Of a DNA stretch of 64,000 bases, positions 36,664 through 55,502 are shown in pieces. This stretch comes from Patescibacteria group bacterium (GTDB lineage Bacteria > Patescibacteriota > Microgenomatia > Levybacterales > GWA1-39-11), in NCBI GenBank assembly GCA_035549295.1, contig DASZRG010000043.1:1910-65909 (forward strand), in the 5' to 3' direction. The notes under the pieces were generated by a model. It saw nothing but the letters and a program-made list of their open reading frames with translations, searched no databases and was not told the DNA's origin. The number at the start of each line of letters is the position of its first letter. Within the stretch, counting starts at the first letter, position 1. The translations under genes were made by a program, and so were the position numbers.

Positions 36664-38154
36664 TTGGAATTTATCAAATTGGAACAATTACTAAGCTCTA
36701 AATTTTACAAAAAACATAGCTACGAAATCATGGTCGTAGCAATAATTCTGCTCGCCATTTTTCTTCGCTTCTACAACTATTCAGGCCGCTTACTACTTGC
36801 TGGAGATCAAGCACGCGACGCAATAATTGCCCAAGAAATAGTAAACGAACACAAGATTCCTGCTGTTGGTCCATTTTCATCAGTCGGTAACTTCACAACC
36901 GGAAACATTTGGTACATATGGCTTGGATTTTCAGCGGCTCTTATTCCTACTTTCGAAGGACCTTGGATAATTCTTACCCTGTCCTATATCACGATAGTAA
37001 TTTTGATGATAATTATTGCAAGAAACATAGGCGATAAGTCCTTTTCACTGATAGTCGGACTTTTGGCGGCAGTTTCACCAGCCGAAGTTGCCCAAAGTAC
37101 CAATCTTACTAACCCATCTCTTGTAGCAGTATTTTCGGTTTTAACGCTACTGTTTGCACTGCTTTATTTAAAAAAGGGTACAAATTTATTTTTGTTTTTG
37201 GTTGCCTTCTTTATAGGAGAAGCGATAAGTACGCATTTTCAAGCAGTCTATCTTCTTGTATTAATTCCAATAGTTCTTGTTGTTAAAAGACCAAAGTTAT
37301 CTGGATTTGTTTATTTAGCAATTGGACTTATTATTCCATTCATTGCCTATTTTTATTTTGACTTCAATCACAACTTCTACAATATTCGTGGAATCATTGA
37401 CTATGTAAGATTCGGCCAATATAGAATATACATTGCAAATCGATGGCTTACATACGCAGCCGTTTTTTGGCCCGACATGTGGGGAAAAATAATCGGTGGG
37501 AACAAACTATTCGGCTATTTGTTTATGGCCCTTGTAACGCTCTCCACAATCTATTCACTTCTTAAAAAACAAATTAACAAACAATTGCTATCCGTCGTTG
37601 CAACTTTTGCAATCGTTTTTGTTGCGCTTCGATTTTATCGCGGAGAAAGATTTGATGGATATTTTGTATTTTTACATCCATACGTATTGTTATTGTCTGC
37701 ATTCGTAATCTATTTTATTTACAAGTTAAACAAATATTTAGGACTGCTTATTTTATTTCTTGTATTAATCTTTAGCATAAATGCAAGTTTACCTGCTCTT
37801 TTCGATAAACAAACAGAAGTAAATAAAGGCGAGTATTGGAGCAACGTTTTTATAAAAGATTTTCCTGATAAAAAATTTGAGTTTTATCAATTCACAAATA
37901 GCAATGAATCGCTAAGTCTTCCAATAGTTATTAATCTTTATAAAAAAGGCAAAATTCAAGATGGTGGATATCGAATTGGTTTTGGAGGTCCAAAACCTGC
38001 GGACAGAAAAAATTATGTTTATCTAAAAGACAATAAGTTAGGATTTGACCTATGGAGTCTAAATAGTAGTAGTTCTGCGCAGCTCATAAAATCCGGCTGG
38101 CACAAAGCAAATCCTTCCTCAATATATAAGGTGTCGGCGGAGTGGTATAAATAA
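36664..38154 (+). CDS. Polytopic membrane glycosyltransferase-like protein (GT39 / ArnT / PMT-like fold)
   Basis: The 496 aa ORF has more than 10 TM helices. An extracytoplasmic-loop motif AGDQARDAIIAQEIV resembles the DE/DD loop of GT-C mannosyltransferases. Confidence 0.5.
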   Translation: MEFIKLEQLLSSKFYKKHSYEIMVVAIILLAIFLRFYNYSGRLLLAGDQARDAIIAQEIVNEHKIPAVGPFSSVGNFTTGNIWYIWLGFSAALIPTFEGPWIILTLSYITIVILMIIIARNIGDKSFSLIVGLLAAVSPAEVAQSTNLTNPSLVAVFSVLTLLFALLYLKKGTNLFLFLVAFFIGEAISTHFQAVYLLVLIPIVLVVKRPKLSGFVYLAIGLIIPFIAYFYFDFNHNFYNIRGIIDYVRFGQYRIYIANRWLTYAAVFWPDMWGKIIGGNKLFGYLFMALVTLSTIYSLLKKQINKQLLSVVATFAIVFVALRFYRGERFDGYFVFLHPYVLLLSAFVIYFIYKLNKYLGLLILFLVLIFSINASLPALFDKQTEVNKGEYWSNVFIKDFPDKKFEFYQFTNSNESLSLPIVINLYKKGKIQDGGYRIGFGGPKPADRKNYVYLKDNKLGFDLWSLNSSSSAQLIKSGWHKANPSSIYKVSAEWYK

Positions 38155-38266
38155 GAGTATCACGAGTAATTACAATCGTTTAAAGTTATTGGGTAACGAA
38201 ACCCGTATCGGTGAAGTTTTACGTTTAACATACCCCATTGACGAAACGGGCATCGTAACCGATTAA
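38155..38266 (+). repeat. Roughly 110 nt dispersed element, copy A. It starts with GAGTATCACGAG and directly abuts the stop codon of the GT39-like gene
   Basis: About 85% identical to the reverse complement of 53462-53573, including an identical 18-mer CAATCGTTTAAAGTTATT and an identical 22-mer ACGAAACGGGCATCGTAACCGA. Confidence 0.85.
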
Positions 38267-38276
38267 CTTAGATAGT

Positions 38277-38924
38277 CTACTGGGTGGTGATGTCTATTCC
38301 GAGGATTTTTGTTCCTACGACCACTTGATCAACTACATCAAGACCGTTTGTAACTTTTCCAAATATTGTATATGCGTGCGGCAGTGGGGTATCTTTTTTC
38401 AAAATAAAGAATTGACTTCCATTTGTGTTAGGACCTCGATTGGCCATAGCAAGAACCCCTCTTATATATCCCGCTTGGTATGAGGGTGTGTTAGGATTTA
38501 GCTCATCTTCAAATGTTGGTCCATAGATTGATGTACCGCCAGATCCATTACCGCTTGGATCACCACCCTGAATAACCCAATCCTCTACTCGATGGAAAGT
38601 AAGATTATTATAGTATCCTCGTTTTGCCAGAGTTGCAAAGTTAGTTACAGTCTTTGCAGCTTCTGATGCGTAAAGATCAACCGTGATGTCTCCTTTATCG
38701 GTTCTAATAGTTGCGGATTTTGCATTTGTTACTTCATCTGTTGAGTTTGTAACCTGCTGACTTTCTCCGCCAGGTGTTGGTGTATTTATGGATACTGTTG
38801 GAGATGCCGTAGGTGTCAAAAAATTTGGTGTCTGAGACTGTTGATTGGTACTTTGATTTGTCATAAAGTAAATTCCTAAAAACGCAACAAGAACTATTAA
38901 ACCGAAAACCACTGCCGTTTTCAT
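38277..38924 (-). CDS. ppiB: Cyclophilin-type peptidyl-prolyl cis-trans isomerase with an N-terminal membrane anchor
   Basis: Cyclophilin motifs include FHRVEDWVIQGGDPSGNGSGG and MANRGPNTNGSQFFI. A TM helix is present at the N-terminus. Confidence 0.85.
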   Translation of the reverse strand: MKTAVVFGLIVLVAFLGIYFMTNQSTNQQSQTPNFLTPTASPTVSINTPTPGGESQQVTNSTDEVTNAKSATIRTDKGDITVDLYASEAAKTVTNFATLAKRGYYNNLTFHRVEDWVIQGGDPSGNGSGGTSIYGPTFEDELNPNTPSYQAGYIRGVLAMANRGPNTNGSQFFILKKDTPLPHAYTIFGKVTNGLDVVDQVVVGTKILGIDITTQ

Positions 38925-39003
38925 GTGACATTTATTCTAATCATTTCTGATCATTTTTTCAAGCACAAATACGCCTGAGCTGGTTGGAAGATTGGAGAGA
39001 CTA

Positions 39004-39483
39004 TTACCAGCGGAAGTGAGAGAAGGCTTTGTTAGCCTCTGCCATGCGGTGTGCAACATCGCGCTTTTTAATAGCTTCACCTTCATTTTTTGTCGCTGCG
39101 ATAAGTTCTGCGGCAAGTTTTTCAGAAAAAGTCTTGAATTCTGCTGTTGGTCTTTTTTTGGCTGCTTCTAGAATCCAGCGAATAGCAAGAGCTGTTTTTC
39201 GTGCACCTCGGACTTCTGTTGGAACTTGATAAGCAGCACCACCGATGCGTCGTGCTTTAACTTCTACTTTTGGTCCAACCGCCTCGAGAGCACCCTCAAA
39301 TATCTCAACAGGATTACCTTCTTTTTTGAGAATTTCAAAAGCATCCATCATGACTTTCTGAGCAATGGTCTTTTTACCATCAACCATAAGTCTGTTGGTG
39401 AACATAGACACTAAAATATTTCCGTAGACCGGATCACCTTTTATTTCGTGTCTTTTTATTTTTTTACTTACTCCACGTGCCAT
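39004..39483 (-). CDS. rpsG: 30S ribosomal protein S7
   Basis: The 159 aa ORF matches S7 sequence. Confidence 0.95.
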   Translation of the reverse strand: MARGVSKKIKRHEIKGDPVYGNILVSMFTNRLMVDGKKTIAQKVMMDAFEILKKEGNPVEIFEGALEAVGPKVEVKARRIGGAAYQVPTEVRGARKTALAIRWILEAAKKRPTAEFKTFSEKLAAELIAATKNEGEAIKKRDVAHRMAEANKAFSHFRW

Positions 39484-39520
39484 AAATTTAGATATTAGAT
39501 ACTAGTAACTAGATATTAGG
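39484..39520. repeat. Type B repeat at the rpsG/rpsL junction
   Basis: AAATTTAGATATTAGATACTAGTAACTAGATATTAGG. Confidence 0.7.
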
Positions 39521-39943
39521 TTATGCGGCGGCGGCGGCTGGTCGCTTTGAACCATATCTACTTCTTGATGTTCTTCGTGTCTCAACCCCTGCAAGATCGA
39601 ATTTACCACGAACCAAGTGATATTTAACTCCTGGTAAATCTTTTACACGACCACCACGAACCAAAACGATACCGTGTTCTGCTAAATTGTGACCAATACC
39701 CTGTATGTATGCTGTTACCTCTTCTCGGTTGGACAACTTAACACGGGCAACTTTACGAAGTGCTGAATTAGGTTTTTTAGGAGTCATTGTACGGACGAGC
39801 GTTACAACTCCACGCTTTTGAGGCGAAGGAACCTCAGAATAAGTACGAAGTTTGGCATTAAAAATAGTACGCAAACCTGTTGCTTTTATTTTCTTTGATT
39901 TTTTCGAACGACCTTTTCTTATTAACTGATTAAGTGTAGGCAT
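39521..39943 (-). CDS. rpsL: 30S ribosomal protein S12
   Basis: Starts [12 protein letters not shown] and contains the PNSALRKV region. It has a short Ala-rich C-terminal tail. Confidence 0.95.
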
Positions 39944-40108
39944 TGTCGTATTGTACTATAAATCGTGCTCAAATACCAGTATTTAAACAAATTGACCAAG
40001 AACCAAATTCCAAATTCCAAACCAAATTTAAAAGTTAAATTTTAAATTGTTTAAACATTGATGATTTGTTAATAGGTGCTTGGTGAATTGATTATTAGGA
40101 AGTGAGAA

Positions 40109-43100
40109 TTAGGCAGCTGAGGCAGCCTCAACTACAGGCTCTGCTTCTTCTTTTTGTGCTCCGACGTTTGCTTCCATGAATTCACCACGAACTGGGATAA
40201 GACGACCAACGATGACATTTTCTTTAAGCCCAATAAGATGGTCTATTCTACCTTCAAGTGCTGCATCTGTTAGAACCTGAGTTGTCTCCTGGAAGGAGGA
40301 TGCTGACAACCATGAATCTGTAACGAGTGATGCTTTTGTTATACCAAGTACAATCTCTCGTGCAGATGCTGGCTCTCCACCTTCTGAGATAATATTTGCA
40401 TTTTCTTCCTCAAATCTGAGCTTTGAAACGAGGTCGCCAGGCATAAGAGCTGTGTCGCCTGGTGTCTCAATCATAACTTTATCAGACATTTTTCGAATGA
40501 TAGTCTCAAAATGCTTGTAGTGAATAGCAATACCCTGTGACTCGTAAACGTTCTGAATCTCATCAATAAGATATTGTTGTGACGCACGAAGACCTGAAAT
40601 CTTTAAGATATCGCGTGGATCAAGGTAACCCTCACAAAGCTGTGTTCCTGCAACAACATTTTCACCTTCCTCAACGAGAATTGTTGAAGTAAGAGGTACA
40701 AAATATTCACGCTCATCAACTGGCTTTGATTTGGTATTTCTAACTCTTATGATATACCCATCTTCAACCTTGGTAACTTCAACTTTTCCTGCGATTTCAG
40801 CAACAGGTGCAAGAACCTTTGGACGTCTTACCTCGAAAAGCTCCTCAACACGTGGTAGACCCTGGGTAACGTCAGACATAACGACTCCTCCAAAATGACG
40901 AACACGCATGGTAAGCTGGGTTCCAGGCTCTCCAATCGACTGAGCTGCTATAACTCCAACTGGTGTACCTTGATCTGCTCGCTTGTAAGCTGAGAGGTCC
41001 CATCCGTAACACGCTGCACAAAGACCGTATTTAAGTCTACAGAAAAGTGGTGAGCGAACAATAATCTCAGCAATTGAGTCATCTGCTAGAATTTGTGCAA
41101 GCATTTCGTAGTTAACCTCATCTCCTTTTTTAACGAGAGTCTTTTTGTCGCGCTTTGAAACAACGTCTTTTAGAACTACACGACCCAAAATCATGCTTGT
41201 CATGTATGTTTCGTTGTCGCGCTTTTCCATCTCGACTGGAATACCCTCGTCAACTCCACAATCCTCTTCGCGGATAATAACATCGTGGGCAACGTCAACA
41301 AGTCTTCTAGTCAAATATCCTGCGTCTGCTGTCTTAAGAGCTGAATCGGTCAATCCTTTTCTTGAACCACGAGCTGAGTTAACGTATTCGAAAATTGAAA
41401 GACCTTCTCTAAAGTTTGACTTAATTGGAAGTTCAACGATTCGTCCCATTGGATCGAAAATAAGACCACGCATTGCAGCAAGCTGCTTAATCTGATCTTT
41501 TCCAGCACGAGCTCCTCCTGACTCAGCAATAATGCGAACAATATCGTTTTTGTCAAACAGATCCCATGTAAGATTTGCCATCTTTTCAGTTGCTTCAAGC
41601 CATACGTCATTTGAAAGACGTCGCTGCTCAGAATGAGTTATAAGACCGTTTTGGTATTCCTGCTCAATCTCAGAGATCTTCGCTTCTGCTTCATCAATAA
41701 GCTTGTCTTTGTTATCAAGTCTCTTCAAATCAAAGGTTGAAACTGAAATACCAGATAAGGTTGCTGCATAAAATCCAATACCTTTTATATTGTCGATCAA
41801 GTGTGCAACCTCTTCCTCTGAACAAATTACCATTGCTCGTGTAATAAGTTCTTTAATAGTTGATGCTTTAACTTCGCGATTAACAAATTTGAGTGACTCA
41901 GGAAGTCTTTCGTTGAAGAGAATTCTTCCAATCGAAGTCTCAATGAGTGCTCCGCTCAGTCGAACCATAATAGGTTCACGAACCTGAATTTTCTTAAGTG
42001 AGAATGCGAGATGCGCCTCTTCTTCGCTTGAGAATGTAGGAATAGTTTCGCGTCTTGTTCTCTCATCGATTGATGTGAGGTAGAAAACACCAAGAGCCAT
42101 TTCTTTGTTTGGAAGAGTAATAGGTGCACCATCTGCTGGCTTGAGCAAGTTGTGCTGCGGCATCATAAGACTGATTGCCTCCTCTTGTGCTTTCTGTGAA
42201 AGAGGAATGTGAATTGCCATCTGATCTCCATCAAAGTCAGCATTGTATCCAGCGCAGACACAAGGATGGATCTTTATAGCCGATCCTTCAACGAGAACTG
42301 GGTAAAATGCCTGAATACCTAGCTTGTGAAGAGTTGGAGCACGATTCAGGAGAACTGGGTGGTTACGTGTAATTTCTTCCAAGATATCAAATATCTCAGG
42401 TGAGCGGCGCTCAATAAATCTCTTTGCAGCTTTGACATTGGGGGTCGTGAGACCTCGTGCTATAACTTCACGAATAACAAACGGTTTGAAAAGCTCAAGT
42501 GCCATTTCTTTTGGAAGACCACACTGGTTAAGAGTGAGCTCTGGACCAACGATGATAACTGATCTACCTGAATAATCGACTCTTTTTCCAAGAAGATTCT
42601 TTCTAAATCGACCTTGTTTACCTCGCAAAATATCTGAAAGTGATTTGAATTGCTTTTGAGTTTGTGAAGTTCTTATTGAGGTATCAATAAGGTAATCAAC
42701 TGATTCTTGAAGCATTCTTTTTTCGTTTCTCAAAATAATCTCAGGTGCACCAAGTGAAATAAGGTGCTTCAAGCGGTTATTTCGGTTAATAACACGGCGG
42801 TAAAGATCGTTTAAGTCAGATGTCGCAAATCGTCCACCGTTAAGCTGAACCATAGGACGAAGATCTGGTGGAAGAACTGGAAGGACTTCGAGAACTAATG
42901 ACTCTGGTGAGAATCCTGCCTTGTTAACTGACTCGATCAAGTGTTGACGCTTGAGAAGCTTGAGCTGTTTTTGACCTGATGACTTTTGCACTTCTTCACG
43001 AAGATCACCGATAAGTTTTGTGAAATCAACTGACTGAATAGCATGCAGTATTGCAGCAGCACCTGTCTCAACTTCGAAGAAGATTGGGACATCATATTCA

Positions 43101-43939
43101 ATAAGTCTTACGTACTCTTCCTCAGAGATAACATCCCAAAGCTTAAGACCTTTAATAATGTCGCCAACTCTTGAGAAAATTTCCTCAGTTCTTGAAATTT
43201 CTGTCTCAAGTCTTTTGTCGAGTGCAATCTTTTTCTGGCGATATACAACATCAGTCTCCTCAAGGATAAGTTCTTTCTGCTCATCTGGAAGTTTTCCCTT
43301 TACGCCTTTTACCTTTTCTTTTTCTTCCTCACCAAGTGCCTTTAGTTCCTCTTCAACTTGTGCTTTAAGATTCTTAACCCTTTCTTCTTTTATGTCATTT
43401 ATTGTCTTTTGAGCATCTTTTCTCTTATCCTCATCAATCTTTGTAACAAGATATGAAGCAAAGTAAACAACTGACTCTAGATCTTTTTGTGCTATATCAA
43501 GAAGCGTTGAGAGCTTTGAAGGGCTTCCCTTTGAAAACCAGATGTGAACTACTGGACATGCAAGTGATATGTGACCCATGCGCTCACGTCTTACTCTTGA
43601 ATAAGTGACCTCGACTCCACATCTATCACAAACTATACCCTTGTATCGAATTCTTTTGTATTTTCCACAGTAACATTCGAAATCGCGCGTAGGACCAAAA
43701 ATACGCTCATCAAAAAGTCCGTCTTTTTCAGGTCGGTATGTTCTATAGTTTATGGTCTCAGGCTTTGTGATCTCACCGTATGAGTAAGTTTTTATATCCT
43801 GTGACTCTGCAACCAATACCTTAAGACCTTTAAAGTCTGAAATATTAATTGCGTCAAATTTTTTATCTTTTCGTGTTTTTGGCTCCATAAATATTAATTG
43901 AGGTCGTTTATTATACGCCTGTTTCCTCCTTTGCTGCAA
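40109..43939 (-). CDS. rpoC: DNA-directed RNA polymerase subunit beta-prime. An alternative start lies at 43888
   Basis: The 1276 aa ORF contains the zinc-binding CYCGKYKRIRYKGIVCDRCGVEV and the catalytic NADFDGDQM. The annotated start overlaps the rpoB stop by 29 nt. Confidence 0.97.
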   Translation of the reverse strand: MQQRRKQAYNKRPQLIFMEPKTRKDKKFDAINISDFKGLKVLVAESQDIKTYSYGEITKPETINYRTYRPEKDGLFDERIFGPTRDFECYCGKYKRIRYKGIVCDRCGVEVTYSRVRRERMGHISLACPVVHIWFSKGSPSKLSTLLDIAQKDLESVVYFASYLVTKIDEDKRKDAQKTINDIKEERVKNLKAQVEEELKALGEEEKEKVKGVKGKLPDEQKELILEETDVVYRQKKIALDKRLETEISRTEEIFSRVGDIIKGLKLWDVISEEEYVRLIEYDVPIFFEVETGAAAILHAIQSVDFTKLIGDLREEVQKSSGQKQLKLLKRQHLIESVNKAGFSPESLVLEVLPVLPPDLRPMVQLNGGRFATSDLNDLYRRVINRNNRLKHLISLGAPEIILRNEKRMLQESVDYLIDTSIRTSQTQKQFKSLSDILRGKQGRFRKNLLGKRVDYSGRSVIIVGPELTLNQCGLPKEMALELFKPFVIREVIARGLTTPNVKAAKRFIERRSPEIFDILEEITRNHPVLLNRAPTLHKLGIQAFYPVLVEGSAIKIHPCVCAGYNADFDGDQMAIHIPLSQKAQEEAISLMMPQHNLLKPADGAPITLPNKEMALGVFYLTSIDERTRRETIPTFSSEEEAHLAFSLKKIQVREPIMVRLSGALIETSIGRILFNERLPESLKFVNREVKASTIKELITRAMVICSEEEVAHLIDNIKGIGFYAATLSGISVSTFDLKRLDNKDKLIDEAEAKISEIEQEYQNGLITHSEQRRLSNDVWLEATEKMANLTWDLFDKNDIVRIIAESGGARAGKDQIKQLAAMRGLIFDPMGRIVELPIKSNFREGLSIFEYVNSARGSRKGLTDSALKTADAGYLTRRLVDVAHDVIIREEDCGVDEGIPVEMEKRDNETYMTSMILGRVVLKDVVSKRDKKTLVKKGDEVNYEMLAQILADDSIAEIIVRSPLFCRLKYGLCAACYGWDLSAYKRADQGTPVGVIAAQSIGEPGTQLTMRVRHFGGVVMSDVTQGLPRVEELFEVRRPKVLAPVAEIAGKVEVTKVEDGYIIRVRNTKSKPVDEREYFVPLTSTILVEEGENVVAGTQLCEGYLDPRDILKISGLRASQQYLIDEIQNVYESQGIAIHYKHFETIIRKMSDKVMIETPGDTALMPGDLVSKLRFEEENANIISEGGEPASAREIVLGITKASLVTDSWLSASSFQETTQVLTDAALEGRIDHLIGLKENVIVGRLIPVRGEFMEANVGAQKEEAEPVVEAASAA

Positions 43940-46900
43940 TCAGATCTTCCTCAGTTGGCTCAGCTGTCTCATCAAGTGATGCTGCAACTTCCTCTTCTCC
44001 TCCAAATGCTTCCTCAACTTCTTTTTCCGTGGCGACATCAACACCCTCAAGGCTCTCTTTTAACTCTTCTGCTTCTTGCTTCAATTCTTCTTGCTTCTCA
44101 GATGTGTCTTCTGCATCGTCTGCAACTATTGCCTGCATAGGAACAATATTAAGCGATAACGACTGTAGCTCACGAATAAGAACTTTAAATGACTCAGGAA
44201 CGCGAGGCGTTGGAATATCAACACTCTTAATTATAGCCTCAAAAGCCTTTGCGCGACCTGAAACGTCATCTGACTTGATGGTCAACATCTCCTGAAGAGT
44301 GTATGCTGCACGATGCGACTCAAGTGCCCAAACCTCCATCTCTCCAAGACGCTGTCCTCCCATTTGCGCTTTTCCTCCAAGCGGCTGTTGAGTAACAAGT
44401 GAGTATGGTCCAGTTGATCTTGCGTGTGCTTTATCCTCAACCATGTGGATAAGCTTCATGATGTAACCAATACCAACAACGACATCATTCTCATATGGAT
44501 CACCAGTTCGAGCATCATATAGCTTCATTTTTCCATTGTCAGGCATTCCAGCATCTTTCATAAGACCCATGTATCGATCCTCGTCCATCTTTTCAAAAAC
44601 AGGAAGAGCAAGCTTGAGACCAAGTCTTTTTGCAGCGAGTCCAAGGTGAGCCTCAAGAAGCTGACCTAAATTCATACGTCCGAGTACTGAAATTGGGGAA
44701 ATAATGATATCGACTGGAGTACCATCTTCAAGATAAGGCATGTCTGAATCTGGAACTATCTTTGAAATAACTCCTTTATTTCCGTGACGTCCAGCGAGTT
44801 TATCTCCAACAACAACGTGACGAATCTGTGCAACTTCAACTTGCATCTTTTTGATCGTTCCAGGTTCAAGCTCATCACCACGTTCTCGGTCAAGAACCTG
44901 TACGCTTGTGACTATTCCGTGCTCACCATGAGGCATGCGAAGCGATGTGTCGCGAACTTCACGTGCTTTTTCACCAAAGATTGCACGAAGAAGTCTTTCT
45001 TCTGCGGTAAGCTCTGTCTCGCCCTTTGGAGCGATTTTACCGACTAAAATGTCGCCTGGTTTTACTTCAGAACCAACAACAACTACACCCTCGTCATCAA
45101 GATTTGCCAAGTCTTCCTCTGCGACATTTGGGATATCGCGTGTTGTCTCCTCAGGTCCAAGCTTAGTATCAACAACAGTTGCCTCATATTTTTCGATGTG
45201 AACTGAAGTCAGCGAATCGTCACGGACCAAACGGTCTGAAATAACGATAGCATCCTCATATCCAAGCCCATCAAATGATGCGTATGCGATGACCAAATTT
45301 TTACCAAGCGCGAGTTCTCCAAGCTCTGATGCAGGACCATCAATAAGGATATCGCCTTTTTTGATTTTTTGACCAGCAGTTACGACAGGTGCCTGATTGA
45401 AGAAAGTATTTTGAGCTGTTCTTTTGAATTTCTCAATCTTGAATGTTTGGGTCTCACCGCGACCATTCCCTTTTATAGTAACTTTGTTGGCATCGACAAA
45501 TATAACTTCCCCGTCATATGGAGCTGTTATAACGCGTGCCATAGCAGAACTTACAGAGCCTTCCATACCTGTTCCAATGATTGGACTTTCACTTTTAATA
45601 AGTGGAACAGCCTGACACTGCATGTGGGTACCCATAAGAGCACGGTTTGCTTCATCGTGATCGACAAAAGGAATAAGAGCCGCTGATGTTCCAACGACCT
45701 GGCGTGGAATAATATCTATGTATTCAACTTTTTCGCGTTCGACTTCAAGATATTCACCCTTGTAGCGAACTGGAAGAAGCTCGTCTGTGATATATCCATC
45801 TTTATCGATTCTGATATCTGCATGAGTGATGTAGTGCTCAAGTTCTGTGGCTGCATCCATATATACAACTTCATCAGTTACTCGAAGTTTGGACTTCTCG
45901 TGGACAACCTTTTTGTATGGAGCCTCCAAAAATCCATACTCATTGACTTTTGTGTAAAGAGCAAGATAGGTAACAAGTCCAATGTTTGGACCCTCAGGAG
46001 AGCGAACTGGACAAATTCTTGAATACTGAGATGAGTTAATATCACGAATCGAGAAGGAAGCACGCTCACGTGAAATACCACCGGTTCCCATAACAGTTAG
46101 ACGTCTGACGTTATCTATTTCTGAGAGTGGATTTGTCTGGTCAAGAATTGCTGAAAGCTGTGATGTTCTGAAGAATTCGTTAATTGCAGCTATTATTGGA
46201 TGAGCGTTTATAAAGTGTGATGGAGCATATTGTTCTTCAACTGATGCAAGACTCATTTTTTCTTTAATGATTCTTTCAAGTCTTAGTGCACCAACACGAA
46301 AAGCTGTTGTCTGAACGAGTTCTCCGATTGAGCGAATACGTCTGTTTGAAAGATGATCTATATCGTCGATATTTCCTTTACCGTTTTGGAGATTTATAAG
46401 GTATGACATGATACCAATTACGTCGTCGATTGTGAGTGTGAACCCGTCTGGAGCGTTGAATGTTGGGATTGCAGATAGCTTCTGGTTAACCTTATAACGA
46501 CCGACGCGAGATAGATCGTAGCGTCTTCTATCAAAGAATGAATCACGGAAATTTTGGCGGATAGTGTCGATAACCACAGGCTCTCCAGGATTCATTTTCT
46601 TGAAGATCTCAATAAGAGCATCAGTACCACCCTTTGTTTCATCTTTTTCGATAGTGTTCTTTATAAATATCTCGGCTGCTTCAACCCCTTTGAATTTCTC
46701 ATAAATCTCTTCATTTGTCTCTATTCCGAGCGCTTTAAGAAAAACAGATGCGAGGAATTTCTTGCGGCGATCAACTCTGACAACAACCATATCTGTTCTT
46801 GTAGTTGAAAATTCAAGCCATGAACCATGAACAGGCCTCATTTCAGCCGTGTAGAGAGTCTTACCAGTAATTGGATCTTCAACTGCTGTGAAGAAAACAC

Positions 46901-47315: not shown

Positions 47316-47624
47316 TAGAAATAACTTCTAGGAAGGGCTGCCTTTAGAACAAAAAAAACGGAAGGTACAGTGTACCCCCTCATTCAAAAGGCTCGATAAT
47401 TTATATACTATGGCTCGTGCTTTGTCAAGCACCAGTTTTGAGTAAAGTATCGTGTATGGTTGCGAGTTAACGGGTTTGCGGGTTAATGAGTTAATTTCCA
47501 GTTATTATTTACTATTTTTTGCTTAATACTCTTCCCGCAACTATTACTTTGGGACTAGATCAGACCTGTTACCGCTTGGCTTAAACTAACAGCTAAAAGC
47601 TAACTGCTAAACGCTTGCTTAGAC

Positions 47625-48578: not shown

Positions 48579-48696
48579 AACATGCTATTTTACCATATTG
48601 TTATCAGTCAGAAAATCGAACGGCTAAACAATATACATTTGACCTTTGACATGTGACTAAAAAGGTCAATTGTCAATTGTTAAATGTCACATGTTA

Positions 48697-49980: not shown

Positions 49981-50377
49981 GTTTTATAAAATAACAAAAT
50001 TACAAATTCCAATTTCCAAATAAATTCTAAATTTTCAAATTACAAAATCTATAAACAATTGTGCTTTTAGCTTTCTGAATTTGCGAAAGTAACACTTTTT
50101 TGATTTTTTAAATTTGATATTTGTTTGGAATTTGGTGCTTGGTGATTGGTACTTAAACTTATATGTCCTTTCCCATTGCCATTTTGAATATTGCTGAAAT
50201 AAATGATTTGACAAAACGAAGTGTGTAATAAAAAACCATGTTAAATATCTTAACGATTGTGGGCTCAATTTTTTCGAAATAATATTTTATGCGGGAGAGA
50301 AATGCAGAACGATTGTAATCTTTAATATCTTGATCGGTCATCAGACTCGAATTTTGATCGTCTTGCATAGATTAAGT

Positions 50378-51115
50378 TTACGTTGATGCGTTAAGTGTTT
50401 CAAGTGAAGCGTGTATTATAAGTCTTTTCCAAATTGTTCCAGGTGGTGTACATGTAACCAAAGTTATATATGAATGATCAAAACTTTGAGATAGTATGTT
50501 GGTATCATCTGGTGAAGTAATTACTATTGAAAATATTTTGTATTTAAACTGTGTACCTTGAACAGTAATGTTTATTTCATCCCCAACTTTTATAGTGTGA
50601 AGTGTAGCGAAGATAGTTTTATAATTTTTTTGGTCAAACCAAGCAGGAATAGTCGAATGTCCAAATATCACGGCTGTTCCATTCTGACCCGGAATGGCAG
50701 TACCGAGGTACTGAACAAGATGATGATCGAGATCATAGTCACGTGTTGAAACTGTAGCGTTATCTATCCCTAGTTTTGGAATAGATAGGAGATATGAATC
50801 CACCTTTGAGTGTTTAACTGTATTTGATGGAAGACTCGGGTACCAATTTCTTGCATCATTATAATCAGACGTTAAAGACGATATTCCCTGACTAATAAGT
50901 CCTCCAAAGTCCATCCCTCCATTTAAAACCATGTACTTGGGTATCGGAACTTCAAGATTGGTTTGAATATAGTCACCCAGAAAAACCTGATAAGCGATAA
51001 CTGGAAATAAAAAGTAAAGAAATATTCCAAGTCCAATAGTTATTAATATTACTCCGGCGATTTTTTTGTAGATTTTTTTGTCTACTCGTTCATTTTTTTC
51101 GTAGTATTCGGGCAT
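50378..51115 (-). CDS. Sortase family transpeptidase
   Basis: An N-terminal TM helix is followed by a catalytic His (AVIFGHSTIP), the catalytic Cys in the TLVTC motif, and a downstream Arg. Confidence 0.8.
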   Translation of the reverse strand: MPEYYEKNERVDKKIYKKIAGVILITIGLGIFLYFLFPVIAYQVFLGDYIQTNLEVPIPKYMVLNGGMDFGGLISQGISSLTSDYNDARNWYPSLPSNTVKHSKVDSYLLSIPKLGIDNATVSTRDYDLDHHLVQYLGTAIPGQNGTAVIFGHSTIPAWFDQKNYKTIFATLHTIKVGDEINITVQGTQFKYKIFSIVITSPDDTNILSQSFDHSYITLVTCTPPGTIWKRLIIHASLETLNAST

Positions 51116-53388
51116 TAGTTTCTAATTTCAACACTTATATTCTTTGGGTTGGCAGAAAGCATCGCGGGAAGACCAGGAATTTTGTTTTTGAATGAGATGA
51201 CAACATCTGTCACACCCGTCATATCTCGCAATTTTTTATCTGCATCATTGACGCTTTTGCCACGAACATCGCTAATTAATTTTGCCGTATCGATTTGAGG
51301 CGAGAAAACAGCATTTATTTTGAGAGTTGCCGAAGCAGAATCTCCATTCGATCCTGGCTTAACGTCTGTAATATCTATTTTTGAATTCTGGGTTTGAAAT
51401 ACATAGGACCCAGGAACGTCATTTTTAGAAAGTTTTTGGACATAGTCATCAAGATCAGACTTGCTATATGTTCCAACGTTATAGTCAATTGTTGCTGTCA
51501 AACCAACGGTTCCGGCTTCATCTCCAGATTTTTTAGTATACGACTTGTCCTTTACTTCTGATGAAAGAGCTTGGGGAAACGTTACCTCACTTGAGTCAGA
51601 ACTTTGGGCTTTTGAAACCGCATCACCTTCGAGTTTTTGCGTCACAAGAGTTAATAAGTCTTTTAGATCTGTGTCCGAAACAACTGTTGTTGTTTTACTC
51701 GTTCCACCAGTTATTGCATCTGAATTTTTCGCTATAACATCAGATGATGAGACACCTTTTACTGTAAAATTCGAAGCAGATGGTAAATTGTACTCTTTAC
51801 CAAATTTGGAAGCTTGAACTTTTACCGATGCTGATGAAAGGGTCGTTGAAAACGATGAAGTTGAGGCTATATTAACGTCATCTTGCAACTGGAACTCCAA
51901 GCCATTGGGCCCGACAATAGTTGAACCATCAAGAAAAGTTTTACTGTCTTCTGTTTTGTTGTAAATAGTAACTGACCCAGTTGCCTTATCTCCTGTCTCT
52001 TTTTTACCTGTCGCATTTTTACTCTCATCTCCCTTCACTTCTTCTGTTGAAACAGACATTTTGATCTCGTTATCTCCCGTCGGATCTTTTGAAAATGAAA
52101 TCGGGACCGACTTATCAACTGCCTTTTTATCAGCAAATATTATAATTTGCGATTGGAGAAGAACGTTATAATAAAAATACAAAAATCCTGCGATTAAAAT
52201 TATTGCTCCGACAGCAAAAAATATCCCTTTTGATTTGATGAAGTTACCGCCCGAGACCGATGGAACCGTAGGAATACTTGGAATTTTAAGACCCTTTAGT
52301 TTAGACAGAACAGCCGAAACATCAATCGGTACGGGAAGAAGTGCCTTCTTCTCATCAGCAGCTTCCTCGTCTGGCTCATAATCCTCGTCTGTTTCTTTGA
52401 AGTATTTAACGTTTGGTTCTTCTTCAAAACCTGCAAAATCGCCCACTTTTGCAACGTCTGATTTTTCAGTGTTTTTAAGTGACTCTTCAAAAGCGTCTTC
52501 TTTTTCATCCATCTCAGGTGCCGCCTCAATCGCAATATCTTTTTCTTTCAGAAATCCAAACTCCTCAGAAGTTGCCGTATCAAGGATAACTTCCTCATCG
52601 TCGACTAAAGCTCCGCTGTTCGTTCTCACGTCAGACAAAACCTCAAGCTCCATTTGCGTTGCAACTCCATTTATAGTTGCCTCGTTCTCAACGCCTTTCT
52701 CGAGAACAACAACCTGAGGAACATGAAGAAATGGAATTGATTGTGGCCATTTATGAGAAATAAATTCCTGCTGCATTTGTGCAGCATTGTCATAATCAAG
52801 AAGAACGAGTTTTGCGGGAAGTACGTCAACACTATCCATCTTTTTGAATAGCTCTTCCGCCGTTTCAATTACACCCTCACTTACAGAACTTGATTGCGCT
52901 TCCAAAATTTTGCCTGCGCGAACCAGGTAGGCAAATACGTGATTTTTTGTAACTTCAATGAACATTGCAGATACTGGAGCTCCTTCTTTTTTCTCAATGA
53001 AATGAACAATCGCCTCAATAGATGTGAGATATCCTATCGGAGTTAGACCAAGAGACTTACAAACAGTTTTGAGACGATCAAGATAATCAGGTTTTATTTT
53101 ATTCTCAACAATCCAATCATATGGAAGAGAAAAAATTGTTTTATCAACTGTTGCGCCTTCCGGAAGACTTGATTCCAGGAAGCTAATTGAGCGATCGGCC
53201 GCTTTGAGAAGTTCTTCGGAGGATATTTCATCAATGTCTGTTTCGAGGTGATCTTCGTGGCTTGCAAGAATAAAAAGCTTATCACCATGCTCTTCAAAAA
53301 GAATTGCCCCAACCTTATTCGGCTTAATTAAAAGTGATAGAAAATAATTTTTTTCTACTTTTTTGTTCTTTAAAAAAGGCAGCTGCAT
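51115..53388 (-). CDS. Hypothetical bitopic membrane protein (757 aa), translationally coupled to the sortase gene
   Basis: A cytoplasmic N-terminal domain of about 370 aa is followed by a TM helix (GIFFAVGAIILIAGFLYFYY) and a roughly 360 aa Ser/Thr-rich extracytoplasmic domain. Its stop overlaps the sortase ATG by 1 nt (TAATG). Confidence 0.55.
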   Translation of the reverse strand: MQLPFLKNKKVEKNYFLSLLIKPNKVGAILFEEHGDKLFILASHEDHLETDIDEISSEELLKAADRSISFLESSLPEGATVDKTIFSLPYDWIVENKIKPDYLDRLKTVCKSLGLTPIGYLTSIEAIVHFIEKKEGAPVSAMFIEVTKNHVFAYLVRAGKILEAQSSSVSEGVIETAEELFKKMDSVDVLPAKLVLLDYDNAAQMQQEFISHKWPQSIPFLHVPQVVVLEKGVENEATINGVATQMELEVLSDVRTNSGALVDDEEVILDTATSEEFGFLKEKDIAIEAAPEMDEKEDAFEESLKNTEKSDVAKVGDFAGFEEEPNVKYFKETDEDYEPDEEAADEKKALLPVPIDVSAVLSKLKGLKIPSIPTVPSVSGGNFIKSKGIFFAVGAIILIAGFLYFYYNVLLQSQIIIFADKKAVDKSVPISFSKDPTGDNEIKMSVSTEEVKGDESKNATGKKETGDKATGSVTIYNKTEDSKTFLDGSTIVGPNGLEFQLQDDVNIASTSSFSTTLSSASVKVQASKFGKEYNLPSASNFTVKGVSSSDVIAKNSDAITGGTSKTTTVVSDTDLKDLLTLVTQKLEGDAVSKAQSSDSSEVTFPQALSSEVKDKSYTKKSGDEAGTVGLTATIDYNVGTYSKSDLDDYVQKLSKNDVPGSYVFQTQNSKIDITDVKPGSNGDSASATLKINAVFSPQIDTAKLISDVRGKSVNDADKKLRDMTGVTDVVISFKNKIPGLPAMLSANPKNISVEIRN

Positions 53389-53461
53389 ATTTGATTACTA
53401 TCAGACTACGAGTAACTAGATACTAGAGAATAGTAACTAGAAGTCTCCAGTTATTAGTTAG

Positions 53462-53573
53462 TCGGTTACGATGCCCGTTTCGTTTTTGGGTTACGTTAAA
53501 CGTAAAGACTTAACCGATACGGGTATCGTTACCAAATAACTTTAAACGATTGGAATCGCCCTTGATACCCTTA
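53462..53573 (-). repeat. Roughly 110 nt dispersed element, copy B. It is inverted relative to copy A and directly abuts the alaS stop codon
   Basis: The reverse complement aligns with 38155-38266 at about 85% identity. On the alaS strand it begins GGGTATCAAGGG immediately after the TAG stop. Confidence 0.85.
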
Positions 53574-55502
53574 CTAGGCAACCGTTGCGTAAATGCGACG
53601 GTTACTCTTCCCTAGGCTTTCCTCTTTTAATATTTTAAACTCTTTTAGTATGCCTGTAAAATCAACATGAGGCCCCCCGCAAAACTCGATCGAATAGACA
53701 GCGTCCTTTTGACCTCTCTTATGTGTTTTTGAATAAGGATTTGAACCTCCAATAAAATAAACTTTTACATCTTTTGCATATTTATCCTCGAATAGGCCAA
53801 TTGCACCGATTTTTTTTGCCTCTTCGATAGGCAAAATTTCAAAATGTACAGGTAAATTTTCGTTAATTTTTTCATTTACAATTGTCTCGATTTTTTTTAT
53901 CTCTTCATCAGTTAATTTACGATCAAAATTGAAATCAAATCTGACTCTCTCTGATGTGATATTTGAACCCGTCTGATGAACCTCGTCTCCCAGAATATCG
54001 CGTATTGCCTGATGCATGAGATGAGTCGCAGTATGTCCCATAATCGTCTTTTCACTGTGATCTGCAAGACCACCCTTGAACTTCCCGGCTGATGCAGTCC
54101 TTGAATTTTTAGAATGCTCTTCCATTTTTGTCGCAAACGCTTGTAGATCAAAAGTGTATCCAAGACTTTTTATTTGTGTCGGAGATAAACCATGAGTGGT
54201 ATATAAAATAAACGCATCATCAGCTGATATCTCAGTTACGCCCAGCAATTCATCGCCAATTTTTTTATACTTTTTAGCTATAAAACGTTTCGCTTCTCTT
54301 AAAGTGTTTCTGTATTTTTGATCTTCTTCAAGGATGGTATTTTTTATATGCTCATATCTCTCTAAAAGCTTTTCGTCTGTTACCTTATACTGATCGACAA
54401 TTCTATCTAATACCTCAACTATTGATTCACCCCCAAGAGCATAAAAATTATCAAATCCACGACGAAGAAACCGTCTCAAGACATATCCTTGTTCTTTATT
54501 TGAAGGGATAACACCATCTGCTGTAATAAATACTGAAGCAAGCATATGATCAAGGACGATTCTCATCTCTCGCGAATTTGCTTCATACTTTTTTGCAGTA
54601 ACATTTTCAATTGTTGAAATAATTGGAGAGAATAAAGACGTTCTGAAGACATCCTGCTGGTTTTCAATTGCCATCAAAAGGCGCTCAAGTCCTCCGCCAA
54701 AATCAACGTTTGGTTTGGAAAGTGGCGCAAGTCGGCCATCTTCTTGCTTTTTATAAGCCATAAAAACACTATTCCCAATTTCAATAAATCTTCCACAGTC
54801 GCAATTTGGATGACAGTTTTCATCTGCAAATTTACTTTGTTCATGAATTCTCAAATTTTCCCCGAAATCGTAAAATACTTCAGTGCTTGGTCCACCCGGT
54901 TCACCTGCTGGCATCTTGTCAGGAGTTCCAGATCTAGACCACCAATTTTTCTCAGCTCCGTAATATGAAATATGAGACCTGGAATCAATACCTGATGATT
55001 CAAACAAACCTTCCCAAATTGATTCTGCCTCATGATCCAGCTCTAAGTCTTCAAAGCCTTTAAATACTGTTACGTAAAGTTTTTTTGGATCAATGTTTAA
55101 CTCGCGGGTTAAGAATTCAAAAAACCATGGAATTTGGTCTGTTTTGAAATAATCACCGAGTGACCAGTTACCAAGCATTCTAAAAAATGTTGTGTGGCGA
55201 TTGTCTCCTACTTCATCTATATCTTGCGCACGAAAACAGTTCTGAACATTAACAAGCCTTGATCCTTGAGGGTGAGTTTCGCCCAGGAGATATGGAACGA
55301 GTGGCTGCATACCTGAGGAGGTAAACAATGTAGTTGGATCATTGAGTGGAACAAGAGACGAATTTTGAATCATAATATGTCCACGTTGTTCAAAAAACTG
55401 TATATATTTGTTGATTATTTCTTTGGCCGTCATAGCCTCATCATTATAACATGTGCCATCGGAGTAATGGGCATTTGGTAGAAAGTAGTAAGTATTAAGC
55501 AA
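53574..55502 (-). CDS. alaS: Alanine--tRNA ligase, short form lacking the C-terminal C-Ala domain
   Basis: The class II catalytic core (LFTSSGMQP, FRAQDIDEVGDNRHTTFFRMLGNWSLGDYFK) is present, as are the editing-domain HxxxH and CGGPH zinc motifs. At 642 aa it is shorter than the usual roughly 870 aa. Confidence 0.9.
   Translation of the reverse strand: MLNTYYFLPNAHYSDGTCYNDEAMTAKEIINKYIQFFEQRGHIMIQNSSLVPLNDPTTLFTSSGMQPLVPYLLGETHPQGSRLVNVQNCFRAQDIDEVGDNRHTTFFRMLGNWSLGDYFKTDQIPWFFEFLTRELNIDPKKLYVTVFKGFEDLELDHEAESIWEGLFESSGIDSRSHISYYGAEKNWWSRSGTPDKMPAGEPGGPSTEVFYDFGENLRIHEQSKFADENCHPNCDCGRFIEIGNSVFMAYKKQEDGRLAPLSKPNVDFGGGLERLLMAIENQQDVFRTSLFSPIISTIENVTAKKYEANSREMRIVLDHMLASVFITADGVIPSNKEQGYVLRRFLRRGFDNFYALGGESIVEVLDRIVDQYKVTDEKLLERYEHIKNTILEEDQKYRNTLREAKRFIAKKYKKIGDELLGVTEISADDAFILYTTHGLSPTQIKSLGYTFDLQAFATKMEEHSKNSRTASAGKFKGGLADHSEKTIMGHTATHLMHQAIRDILGDEVHQTGSNITSERVRFDFNFDRKLTDEEIKKIETIVNEKINENLPVHFEILPIEEAKKIGAIGLFEDKYAKDVKVYFIGGSNPYSKTHKRGQKDAVYSIEFCGGPHVDFTGILKEFKILKEESLGKSNRRIYATVA

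What the first reader, a model, noticed from the sequence alone, without database searches (positions are those of the whole stretch)
38155..38266. A roughly 110 nt element is present in two inverted copies, each starting exactly at the stop codon of a gene on its own strand
The segment 38155-38266 on the plus strand, immediately after the GT39-like stop, is about 85% identical to 53462-53573 on the minus strand, immediately after the alaS stop. Identical blocks are CAATCGTTTAAAGTTATT and ACGAAACGGGCATCGTAACCGA. Both copies begin with the GTATCA 9-mer motif. The 5' segment GGTAACGAAACCCG can pair with the 3' segment CGGGCATCGTAACC, enclosing about 45 nt. Copy B retains a perfect palindrome TTACGTTTAACGTAA. 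Conservation together with fixed placement as a 3' UTR on the same strand suggests a structured 3' RNA element or a small RNA derived from the 3' UTR, rather than a protein-coding or mobile sequence. Neither copy is coding.
Basis: seen in the sequence. Interest (0 to 1): 0.65.

Follow-up and report, generated by a model that had tools for sequence, protein, structure and literature searches.

The report
Miniature intervening-sequence hairpin repeat copies
The two inverted ~115-nt copies are gene-less miniature members of a very widespread hairpin-bounded selfish element whose full-length form carries only a small four-helix-bundle protein gene of the family first found in intervening sequences of 23S rRNA, so they are not a dedicated 3' UTR regulator of the two genes they follow.

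Summary
Window 38155-38273 (+) and 53446-53573 (-) are about 85% identical, non-coding, start at a stop codon and fold into a long imperfect hairpin.

They are not specific to these genes. Their arms (GGTAACGAnnCCCGTATCG / CGAAACGGGCATCGTAACC) recur as exact 19-20-mers in more than 240 public loci. These come from Omnitrophota, Nitrospirota, Desulfobacterota, WOR-3, Planctomycetota, Cloacimonadota, Bacteroidota and CPR MAGs, often with several copies per genome.

Most copies have 45-62 nt between the arms. About 10% have ~430-440 nt, which is a 131-135-aa ORF of Pfam PF05635/TIGR02436 (23S rRNA intervening-sequence protein, homologous to Avd). A search started from the protein found the same arms around the ORF in 4 of 4 loci. 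Short copies are clean internal deletions of the ORF.

A relative with the same gene order has only 18 nt between alaS and the next gene, so the window copy looks like an insertion. Copies fill short spacers inside operons and are 80-85% co-oriented with the flanking genes.

Best reading: a MITE-like derivative of an intervening-sequence-type element. RNase III processing and the mobility mechanism are inferred and untested. I rate it a new variant of a known kind, of moderate to high interest.

The parts
38155..38273 (+). Copy A of the hairpin element (ORF-less miniature form), immediately after the TAA stop of the PMT_2-like glycosyltransferase gene and convergent with the cyclophilin gene
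   Evidence: Alignment to copy B; fold; nhmmer match 38180-38273, E = 1.4e-18, though the window copies were part of the model
38154..38191 (+). 5' extension of copy A: one AGAGTATCA 9-mer followed by ...ATTACAATCGTTTAAAGTTATTG, which includes the 5' strand of the outer stem (AGTTA)
   Evidence: A homologous extension (GAGTATCAGAAGG..GTTAAGAGTTTAAC) is seen in L032
38192..38210 (+). 5' arm of copy A, GGTAACGAAACCCGTATCG
   Evidence: family consensus GGTAACGAAGCCCGTATCG
38211..38241 (+). Inner region of copy A. This is the position where full-length family members carry the four-helix-bundle ORF; here only a degenerate inner stem remains (TTACGTTTAACATA)
38242..38260 (+). 3' arm of copy A, CGAAACGGGCATCGTAACC
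53446..53573 (-). Copy B of the hairpin element, between the alaS stop (TAG 53574-53576) and the next gene on the same strand (start 53388)
   Evidence: nhmmer 53454-53546, E = 6.1e-18
53515..53533 (-). 5' arm of copy B, GGTAACGATACCCGTATCG
53491..53505 (-). Inner stem-loop of copy B, the perfect palindrome TTACGTTTAACGTAA. It corresponds to the GGTAACGT/ACGTAACC stem that brackets the ORF in full-length elements
53464..53482 (-). 3' arm of copy B, CGAAACGGGCATCGTAACC
36664..38154 (+). Upstream host gene of copy A (PMT_2-like glycosyltransferase; weak Pfam hit below the curated cutoff)
53574..55502 (-). Upstream host gene of copy B, alanine--tRNA ligase (longest ORF; the public call is 599 aa)
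51115..53388 (-). Downstream host gene of copy B (757 aa). In relatives it follows alaS directly, 18 nt after the stop in L130

Best explanation
Both copies are ORF-less, MITE-like members of a hairpin-bounded selfish element family.

Architecture of the full-length element (about 530 nt):
- outer stem
- a nearly invariant 19-bp core stem, GGUAACGAAGCCCGUAUCG / CGAAACGGGCAUCGUAACC, with three A.A mismatches
- an inner stem, GGUAACGU / ACGUAACC
- exactly inside that inner stem, a 131-135-aa gene for a four-helix-bundle protein of the PF05635/TIGR02436 family. [quoted passage not shown]

Shown here:
- The short copies, including the two in the window, are internal-deletion derivatives that keep the arms and the last few nucleotides of the ORF.
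- The family is dispersed in many copies across many phyla.
- It sits in short spacers between co-transcribed genes.
- It is mostly co-oriented with those genes.
- It is absent from the orthologous alaS spacer of a relative, so it behaves as an inserted, horizontally spreading element.

Inferred:
- As with the S23p-carrying intervening sequences of Leptospira and Coxiella 23S rRNA, the element is transcribed as part of the host RNA. Its long stem is probably cut by RNase III, which removes the hairpin and separates the upstream and downstream cistrons. This would make insertion between genes tolerable.
- The ORF-less copies are probably mobilised in trans. The only element-encoded candidate is the four-helix-bundle protein, acting on the conserved mismatched stem. 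The chemistry of movement is unknown.
For: Family size and spread:
- The exact 20-mer of the 3' arm occurs in at least 118 stretches of GTDB genomes from many phyla, often on several contigs of one MAG. It has 0 matches in viral contigs.
- The exact 19-mer of the 5' arm occurs in at least 120 metagenome stretches.

Two size classes:
- Arm-to-arm spacing is bimodal: mostly 18-65 nt, with a second class at about 430-450 nt.
- The long class is a PF05635 ORF (E = 1.5e-18; TIGR02436; PDB 2GSC). It is present between the arms in L042, L051, L065, L071, L083, L097 and L105 and in about 11 loci of the second sample.

Independent test from the protein side:
- Homologues of the protein were retrieved (3107 hits) and their contigs fetched.
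- All 4 independent loci have the same arms tightly bracketing the ORF, reading ...GGTAACGTA-ATG ... TAA-ACGTAACC....

Deletion origin of the short copies:
- In L121 a short copy and an ORF copy lie in one mla operon. The short one equals the long one minus everything between GGTAACGTA and AAAAGACG.

Conservation without ascertainment bias:
- In copies selected by the 5' arm only, paired positions of the 3' arm are 80-100% conserved (13 of the 16 at 92% or more). The three mismatch positions are 71-86% conserved.

Context:
- No neighbouring gene family recurs.
- Copies fill stop-to-RBS spacers. One Nitrospirae operon has a copy in almost every gap.
- Orientation relative to flanking genes is ++ 42 against -- 12 and ++ 29 against -- 5, p = 4e-5.

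Insertion in the window:
- Relative L130 has the same synteny (alaS, a 765-aa gene, sortase) but only 18 nt after alaS. L131 has a 121-nt spacer without the element.

Known analogue:
- The Coxiella intervening sequence has a 28-bp terminal-repeat stem, an S23p ORF and RNase III excision (PMC4990558).
- PF05635 ORFs occur in CPR rRNA insertions (PMC11270868) and wedged between cmr3 and cmr2 (PMC3936711).
Against: - No PF05635 gene lies in the 64-kb window, and the rest of this genome was not examined.
- No target-site duplication was detected, although the element ends are fuzzy.
- The four-helix-bundle protein has no known nuclease, recombinase or transposase activity, so trans-mobilisation by it is conjecture.
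- In about 5 of about 20 ORF-bearing copies the ORF is inverted relative to the arm polarity (L105, L135, L220, L242, L249). That would also fit a passenger gene.
- RNase III cleavage was not and cannot be tested here. The stems carry several mismatches.
- A strong orientation bias is unusual for a purely DNA-level MITE.
- The 'empty site' comes from a relative whose alaS is only about 70% identical, so the exact insertion junction cannot be read.
- None of the loci places the element in an rRNA gene.
- MAG mis-binning could inflate the apparent taxonomic breadth, although several chromosome-level MAGs carry copies.
Confidence: 0.78

Rival explanations
1. A conventional MITE or REP-like palindrome mobilised by an ordinary transposase encoded elsewhere (for example a RAYT/IS200-IS605-type Y1 enzyme acting on single-stranded hairpins). 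On this view the four-helix-bundle gene is only occasional cargo or a secondary insertion into the hairpin loop.
For: - The four-helix-bundle protein has no catalytic domain.
- The ORF can lie in either orientation relative to the arms.
- Other small sequences also insert into the hairpins, for example CCTGCCTGCCGGCAGGCAGG and ATCAG-repeat blocks.
- The conserved single-base mismatches resemble the imperfect hairpins recognised by single-strand transposases.
- If insertion targeted the lagging-strand template, the orientation bias could reflect replication direction.
Against: - In more than 240 loci no transposase-like gene was found between or beside the arms, and no neighbouring gene family recurs.
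- The only coding cargo seen is the PF05635 gene. Its start and stop abut the inner stem precisely in all cases.
- Short copies retain ORF-end remnants, which fits deletion from the ORF form and does not fit insertion of the ORF into a pre-existing hairpin.
- The two window copies lie 15 kb apart in opposite orientations, each matching its own upstream gene. This fits transcription better than replication direction.
- There is no GTAG-type REP signature.
Confidence: 0.13
2. One reading: a dedicated structured 3' UTR element or 3'-UTR-derived small RNA that regulates or stabilises the mRNAs of the two upstream genes.
For: - The hairpin lies on the sense strand directly after the stop codons.
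- The family shows a strong co-orientation bias with genes.
- The fold is stable, with z = -3.45 for copy B.
Against: - The flanking genes across the family are unrelated, and include tRNAs, glmS, mla, fab and cytochrome genes.
- The element is absent after alaS in syntenic relatives.
- Exact 19-20-mers are shared across phyla, which vertical descent of a UTR cannot explain.
- ORF-carrying full-length forms exist.
- There is no terminator-like U tract and no promoter-like site.
- There is no Rfam match.
Confidence: 0.05
3. An integron attC-like recombination site that marks gene cassettes.
For: - It is an imperfect palindrome of attC-like length that begins just after a stop codon.
- It is co-oriented with genes and has conserved unpaired bases.
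Against: - The arms lack the RYYYAAC / GTTRRRY core sites. Both arms read GTAAC on the same strand.
- The flanking genes are housekeeping genes in conserved synteny, such as alaS, glmS, mla and tRNAs.
- Most loci hold one copy and not cassette arrays.
- No integrase recurs nearby.
- The arms flank the ORF on both sides, whereas an attC follows its cassette.
Confidence: 0.02
4. An intrinsic transcription terminator or attenuator hairpin.
For: Its position is after stop codons. Copy A lies between convergent genes.
Against: - No T/U run follows the stem, and the terminator scan finds 0 sites in both regions.
- Most family members sit inside operons directly upstream of the next RBS.
Confidence: 0.02

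Closest known systems
S23p-encoding intervening sequences (IVS) of 23S rRNA (Leptospira, Coxiella burnetii; also PF05635 ORFs in CPR rRNA insertions)
   Same: Both are bounded by terminal inverted repeats that form a long stem of about 20-30 bp. The loop holds a gene of about 120-135 aa for a PF05635/TIGR02436 four-helix-bundle protein. Both are transcribed as part of a host RNA, are scattered across taxa and are horizontally distributed. ORF-less short forms also exist among rRNA intervening sequences (PMC4990558, PMC11270868).
   Different: The family found here sits in intergenic spacers of protein-coding operons and beside tRNA genes, and none of the sampled loci places it in 23S rRNA helix 25 or 45. 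It has a nearly invariant arm sequence shared across at least eight phyla. ORF-less miniatures outnumber ORF forms by about 10 to 1. RNase III excision has not been shown for it.
ERIC/IRU elements of enterobacteria and Correia (CREE/NEMIS) elements of Neisseria
   Same: They are imperfect palindromes of about 100-155 bp located in transcribed intergenic regions. Size variants arise from internal insertions or deletions. They are co-transcribed with neighbouring genes, and Correia transcripts are RNase III substrates (from my own knowledge of these families, not tested here).
   Different: Those families are confined to one lineage each and have no known coding full-length partner. This family spans phyla and has a defined ORF-bearing form. 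No sequence similarity was seen or expected.
REP/REPIN elements with RAYT transposases
   Same: They are short extragenic palindromes dispersed in many copies and thought to be mobilised in trans by a single-copy gene flanked by the same palindromes.
   Different: There is no GTAG head motif, the hairpin is much longer, and the partner gene is a four-helix-bundle protein and not a Y1 (HUH) transposase.
Avd, the accessory variability determinant of diversity-generating retroelements
   Same: The element's protein belongs to the same fold and family: PF05635/cd16375, a pentameric four-helix-bundle protein (PMC10053308; 2GSC hit).
   Different: No reverse transcriptase, template repeat or variable repeat lies next to the element. 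The relationship says something about the protein's likely nucleic-acid or partner-binding role. It does not say how the element moves.

Membership tests
S23p-type intervening sequence (IVS) | Bounded by complementary terminal repeats that form a long stem | tested here: met
   Folds. In the family alignment 80.5% of cells are paired, against 21-40% when partners are slid. A 19-bp core stem plus outer and inner stems is present.
S23p-type intervening sequence (IVS) | Encloses an ORF of the PF05635/TIGR02436 four-helix-bundle family | tested here: not met
   The two window copies have only 31-32 nt between the arms and no ORF. The feature is met by about 10% of family members. The window copies retain the flanking stems of that ORF slot.
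S23p-type intervening sequence (IVS) | Inserted in 23S (or 16S) rRNA, typically helix 25 or 45 | tested here: not met
   The window has no rRNA (Rfam). No rRNA signature motifs occur in any of the loci held when the scan was run (the set and the protein- and alaS-derived loci). The copies lie between protein-coding genes.
S23p-type intervening sequence (IVS) | Excised from the host transcript by RNase III without religation | not testable with these tools
   [quoted passage not shown] It is only inferred, by analogy with PMC4990558.
MITE (miniature inverted-repeat transposable element) | Short, non-coding, with terminal inverted repeats | tested here: met
MITE (miniature inverted-repeat transposable element) | Many dispersed copies in unrelated contexts, with presence/absence at orthologous sites | tested here: met
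   The empty alaS spacer in L130 and L131 comes, though from relatives whose alaS is only about 70% identical.
MITE (miniature inverted-repeat transposable element) | Internal-deletion derivative of a longer coding element that shares the same ends | tested here: met
   A short and a long copy in L121 differ by a clean deletion of the ORF. The arms around the ORF are the same in 4 of 4 independent loci.
MITE (miniature inverted-repeat transposable element) | Flanked by target-site duplications | tested here: inconclusive
   No enriched flanking direct repeat of 2-6 nt in 142 copies, but the element ends are imprecisely defined.
MITE (miniature inverted-repeat transposable element) | The autonomous partner encodes a transposase | tested here: not met
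   The only encoded protein is a four-helix-bundle protein with no known catalytic domain. No transposase recurs nearby.
REP/REPIN-RAYT | A 20-40-nt palindrome with a conserved GTAG head, and a RAYT gene flanked by the repeats | tested here: not met
   Read directly from the sequence; no recurrent neighbouring gene.
Integron attC site | R''/R' core sites RYYYAAC...GTTRRRY, cassette arrays and a nearby intI | tested here: not met
   Both arms read GTAAC on the same strand and no GTTRRRY site is present. Single copies lie beside housekeeping genes. No integrase cluster was found.
Intrinsic terminator | GC-rich stem followed by a U tract | tested here: not met
   0 terminator-like sites in 38000-38450 and in 53300-53700.
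Any Rfam 15 RNA family | Score at or above the family's gathering threshold | tested here: not met
   0 matches in the whole window. At E of 10 or less, the only hit was a meaningless 18-bit match to a plant miRNA model.

The most novel reading that the evidence does not exclude
The conserved mismatched hairpin plus the Avd-like four-helix-bundle gene may be an unrecognised class of mobile element. On this reading, 'intervening sequences' are not confined to rRNA but colonise any transcribed spacer. The small non-catalytic pentameric protein would be the specificity factor that recognises the GUAAC/A.A-mismatch stem. It would recruit host enzymes (RNase III, a reverse transcriptase of the DGR type, or repair functions) to copy the cassette and its ORF-less miniatures into new sites. 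That would give the S23p family a function, which has been unexplained since 1993.
Probability: 0.25. Interest if true: 0.85.

Novelty: new variant of a known kind. Interest (0 to 1): 0.6.

Why it matters
Intervening sequences of 23S rRNA and their S23p (PF05635) ORF have been known for about 30 years, but neither a mechanism of spread nor a function for the protein has been established.

This window led to a family in which the same kind of cassette lies between ordinary genes. The cassette has a nearly invariant 19-bp mismatched stem shared across at least eight phyla, and it has produced abundant ORF-less miniatures. Three things follow:
- The conserved arms are a concrete candidate recognition site, which makes the protein's function directly testable.
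- It explains why 'four helix bundle protein' genes turn up wedged inside unrelated operons, including cas operons.
- It flags a widespread repeat that breaks MAG assemblies and can be mistaken for a regulatory RNA.

For the window itself the practical message is simple. The two copies are repeat-element insertions and should not be read as a regulatory feature of alaS or of the glycosyltransferase gene.

Tried and rejected
- Rfam at gathering threshold over the whole window, and at E of 10 or less over copy A: nothing meaningful.
- tRNA/tmRNA scan of the window: none found.
- Exact look-up of the long alaS ORF failed because the public gene call starts later. This was solved through a homology search.
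- Viral contigs, PLSDB plasmids and GenBank phages: no real match. The only hit was a 36-nt, 89%-identical match to Acinetobacter rplP, caused by GGTAA-rich coding sequence and judged to be chance.
- Literal sequence strings searched in the paper library: 0 papers.
- Search for a recurrent neighbouring gene by all-against-all BLAST of 1288 ORFs: only the four-helix-bundle ORF was linked to the arms.
- Duplex-energy permutation test for covariation of the outer and inner stems: not significant (p = 0.09 and p = 0.19), because the flanks share a consensus.
- RNAalifold on the family alignment: the core stem is invariant and has no compensatory pairs, partly because copies were selected by one arm. 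A hand-specified structure gave only modest covariation, largely at subfamily level.
- Strand test from wobble-compatible substitutions: no clear difference.
- Target-site duplication search: nothing outside the element.
- rRNA motif scan of the loci: none.
- First metagenome scan with the window-specific 5' extension plus arm: 0 hits.
- Ralph and McClelland 1993 (PMC47033) is not held in the library.
- attC, REP/RAYT, terminator and promoter readings were considered and rejected; see the membership tests.

Full report
**1. The observation**

Window 38155-38273 (+) and 53446-53573 (-) align at 85% identity. For the 22-mer, none of 100 shuffles gave even one match.

Copy A follows the TAA of ORF 36664-38154, a weak PMT_2-like glycosyltransferase. 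Copy B follows the TAG of alaS. The shared sequence begins TAAG(A/G)GTATCA. In A that TAA is the stop codon. In B it is a second stop just after TAG.

Both copies fold into a long imperfect hairpin: -27.6 kcal/mol for A (z = -1.65) and -36.6 for B (z = -3.45). The opposite strands fold at least as well. No ORF of 50 aa or more overlaps either copy.

**2. Not a known RNA and not a terminator**

- Rfam has no match at gathering threshold in the whole window, and nothing meaningful at E of 10 or less over copy A.
- The window has no tRNA or tmRNA gene.
- No terminator-like or promoter-like site lies in either copy.

**3. The element is a member of a very large, cross-phylum repeat family**

The genomes are labelled Omnitrophota, Nitrospirota, Desulfobacteraceae/Deltaproteobacteria, WOR-3, Planctomycetota, Cloacimonadota, Rikenellaceae and several CPR groups. 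Several contigs of a single MAG often carry it, and some of these MAGs are chromosome-level. It is absent from viral contigs, plasmids and phages.

About two thirds of the hits have the partner arm (consensus ACGAAGCCCGTATCG) 18-65 nt upstream. An nhmmer profile found 162 non-overlapping copies or half-copies in the 120 sources, including diverged ones.

A second, independent sample was ascertained by the 5' arm only. It comprised at least 120 metagenome stretches and gave the same picture:
- 102 of 128 matches have a recognisable 3' arm.
- Paired positions of that arm are 80-100% conserved, 13 of the 16 at 92% or more.
- The three positions opposite the A.A mismatches are 71-86% conserved.

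The core stem is therefore under strong sequence constraint that is not an artefact of how copies were found. For the same reason, covariation cannot be used to test the core stem. A hand-specified structure gives 80.5% paired cells against 21-40% in slid controls. Covariation is modest and lies mainly in the outer stem, where it tracks subfamilies. A permutation test on duplex energies was not significant.

**4. What the family is**

Arm-to-arm spacing is bimodal: a main class at about 45-62 nt and a second class at about 430-450 nt.

The long class contains a 131-135-aa ORF that matches three references:
- Pfam PF05635, '23S rRNA-intervening sequence protein' (E = 1.5e-18)
- NCBIfam TIGR02436, 'four helix bundle protein'
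- the Xanthomonas XCC0516 pentamer, PDB 2GSC

The literature treats this family as homologous to the DGR accessory protein Avd (PMC10053308).

The ORF lies exactly inside the hairpin. The inner stem strand GGTAACGT abuts the ATG, and the stop codon abuts or overlaps ACGTAACC. Seven loci of the first sample and about eleven of the second carry it.

I then tested the link from the other direction. I searched for homologues of the protein (3107 hits at E of 1e-10 or less) and fetched the contigs of four of them. All four independent loci have the same arms bracketing the ORF. In these loci the gene is wedged, co-oriented, inside ordinary operons: between mlaF and mlaD, and among fatty-acid synthesis genes.

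In L121 a short copy and an ORF copy lie in adjacent spacers of the same mla operon. The short copy equals the long one with everything between GGTAACGTA and AAAAGACG removed. The short loop consensus (..GGAAA..AAAAGACGAATG..) is the fused ends of the ORF. The short elements are thus internal-deletion derivatives.

The window copies are even more reduced. Only the inner stem-loop TTACGTTTAACGTAA remains in copy B.

**5. Behaviour as an inserted element**

- No neighbouring gene family recurs across loci apart from the ORF itself.
- Neighbours include tRNAs, glmS, cytochrome and propeller proteins, alaS and others.
- Copies typically occupy the entire space from a stop codon to the next ribosome-binding site.
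- One Nitrospirae operon has a copy in almost every gap.

The window organism is a Patescibacteria MAG (GCA_964570355.1). Two relatives keep the same gene order (RND pump, alaS, a ~760-aa protein, sortase). One has only 18 nt between alaS and the next start codon. The other has an unrelated 121-nt AT-rich spacer. The 185-nt spacer in the window therefore contains an insertion.

**6. Orientation**

Where both neighbours are on one strand, the element's strand (the one with A.A mismatches) matches them in 42 cases against 12. In the independent sample it matches in 29 against 5 (binomial p = 4e-5).

The two window copies lie 15 kb apart and are mutually inverted, each matching its own upstream gene. 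This argues that the bias is linked to transcription, not replication, but I could not test that on whole chromosomes.

Substitution patterns (wobble-compatible against incompatible) did not discriminate between the strands.

**7. Mechanism**

The closest characterised system is the S23p-carrying intervening sequence of 23S rRNA. In Coxiella, a 28-bp terminal-repeat stem encloses the ORF and RNase III excises the element from the precursor. Horizontal spread and a possible role of the ORF in mobility have long been suggested (PMC4990558). PF05635 ORFs are also reported in CPR rRNA insertions (PMC11270868) and between cmr3 and cmr2 (PMC3936711).

By analogy I infer three things:
- The intergenic copies are transcribed with their host operon.
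- The roughly 20-30-bp mismatched stem is an RNase III substrate.
- Removal of the hairpin makes insertion between cistrons tolerable.

The excess of ORF-less copies implies mobilisation in trans. The only element-encoded candidate is the four-helix-bundle protein, which has no known catalytic activity. No target-site duplication was found. In about a quarter of ORF-bearing copies the ORF is inverted relative to the arms. A passenger role for the ORF, with an unidentified transposase, therefore remains a live rival.

**8. Comparison and novelty**

The window copies meet the structural definition of a MITE. They lack two textbook features, a target-site duplication and a transposase-encoding partner.

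They share the stem with the classical intervening sequence, and through their full-length relatives they share the ORF. They fail the defining location in rRNA.

I found no paper describing these conserved arms or the intergenic ORF-less derivatives. The library is incomplete, however, and older comparative notes may exist. I rate this a new variant of a known kind.

**9. Verdict**

The claim that the sequence is not mobile and is a gene-specific 3' UTR element is not supported. The feature in the window is ordinary in function, being two repeat insertions. The family it belongs to is interesting, because it ties a cross-phylum miniature repeat to the long-unexplained S23p intervening-sequence cassette.

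Noticed in passing
window 24388-24423 (+), 24464-24499 (inverted), 60500-60535 (+); also 38154-38162 and 53563-53571: The 9-mer AGRGTATCA is over-represented (9 found, 1.07 expected). It forms tandem arrays of four units directly after stop codons. At 24.4 kb a forward and an inverted array bracket a ~40-nt spacer between two genes. Each hairpin copy begins with one such 9-mer followed by GATT(A/C)C(A)AT. Similar ATCAG-type 8-mer arrays lie beside or inside hairpin copies in another MAG (L032, L045, L077, L115). This may be a separate short repeat module that travels with the hairpin.
   Followed up: partly
window 60536-60610: After the 9-mer array and a GATTTCCAAT motif like that of copy B comes a different palindrome, CCCCGATTGAATCGGGG (60574-60590). 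It is flanked by direct GACAATTGACC repeats. It could be another small repeat element sharing the same 5' module.
   Followed up: no
window 38267-53461: The two copies are ~115-nt inverted repeats that bracket 15.2 kb. This stretch holds the cyclophilin, S7, rpoC, rpoB, YceG, sortase and 757-aa genes. Recombination between the copies could invert the block. Relatives L130 and L131 keep the alaS-side gene order, so no inversion is evident.
   Followed up: partly
L042 ~1290-1310, L105 ~6640-6660, L107 ~3105-3125, L089 ~95-115: A small perfect palindrome, CCTGCCTGCCGGCAGGCAGG, is inserted into the arms of several hairpin copies in different MAGs. It is a second, nested miniature repeat that seems to target these elements or GC-rich stems.
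   Followed up: no
L120 638-964 and 1817-2862; L128 3562-3953 and 5603-5881: In the same Omnitrophota-type MAGs, small GIY-YIG genes (92-108 aa) and nucleotidyltransferase genes, some followed by a small unannotated ORF, are also wedged inside biosynthetic operons (for example pyrB, GIY-YIG, pyrC). This suggests that operon spacers in these genomes are colonised by several kinds of small selfish genes.
   Followed up: no
L105 2946-3332; L135, L220, L242, L249: In about a quarter of ORF-bearing copies the four-helix-bundle ORF is inverted relative to the polarity of the arms. This could arise by inversion through the element's own inverted repeats.
   Followed up: partly
L131 4867-4987: The alaS-downstream spacer of this relative lacks the hairpin element but contains its own inverted repeat, CCAATAACCCAAT ... 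ATTGGGTTATTTG.
   Followed up: no
L002, L004, L008, L020, L036, L039, L044, L084, L086, L091, L096, L098, L109, L110: In Desulfobacteraceae-type MAGs the hairpin is embedded in a longer repeat with identical flanks (..GTCAAGTTTTTGCTGGTTTATT[hairpin]CAGTATTTCGTATTTTCTTACTGACA..). It often lies at contig ends, so there it belongs to a larger repeated unit that breaks assemblies.
   Followed up: no
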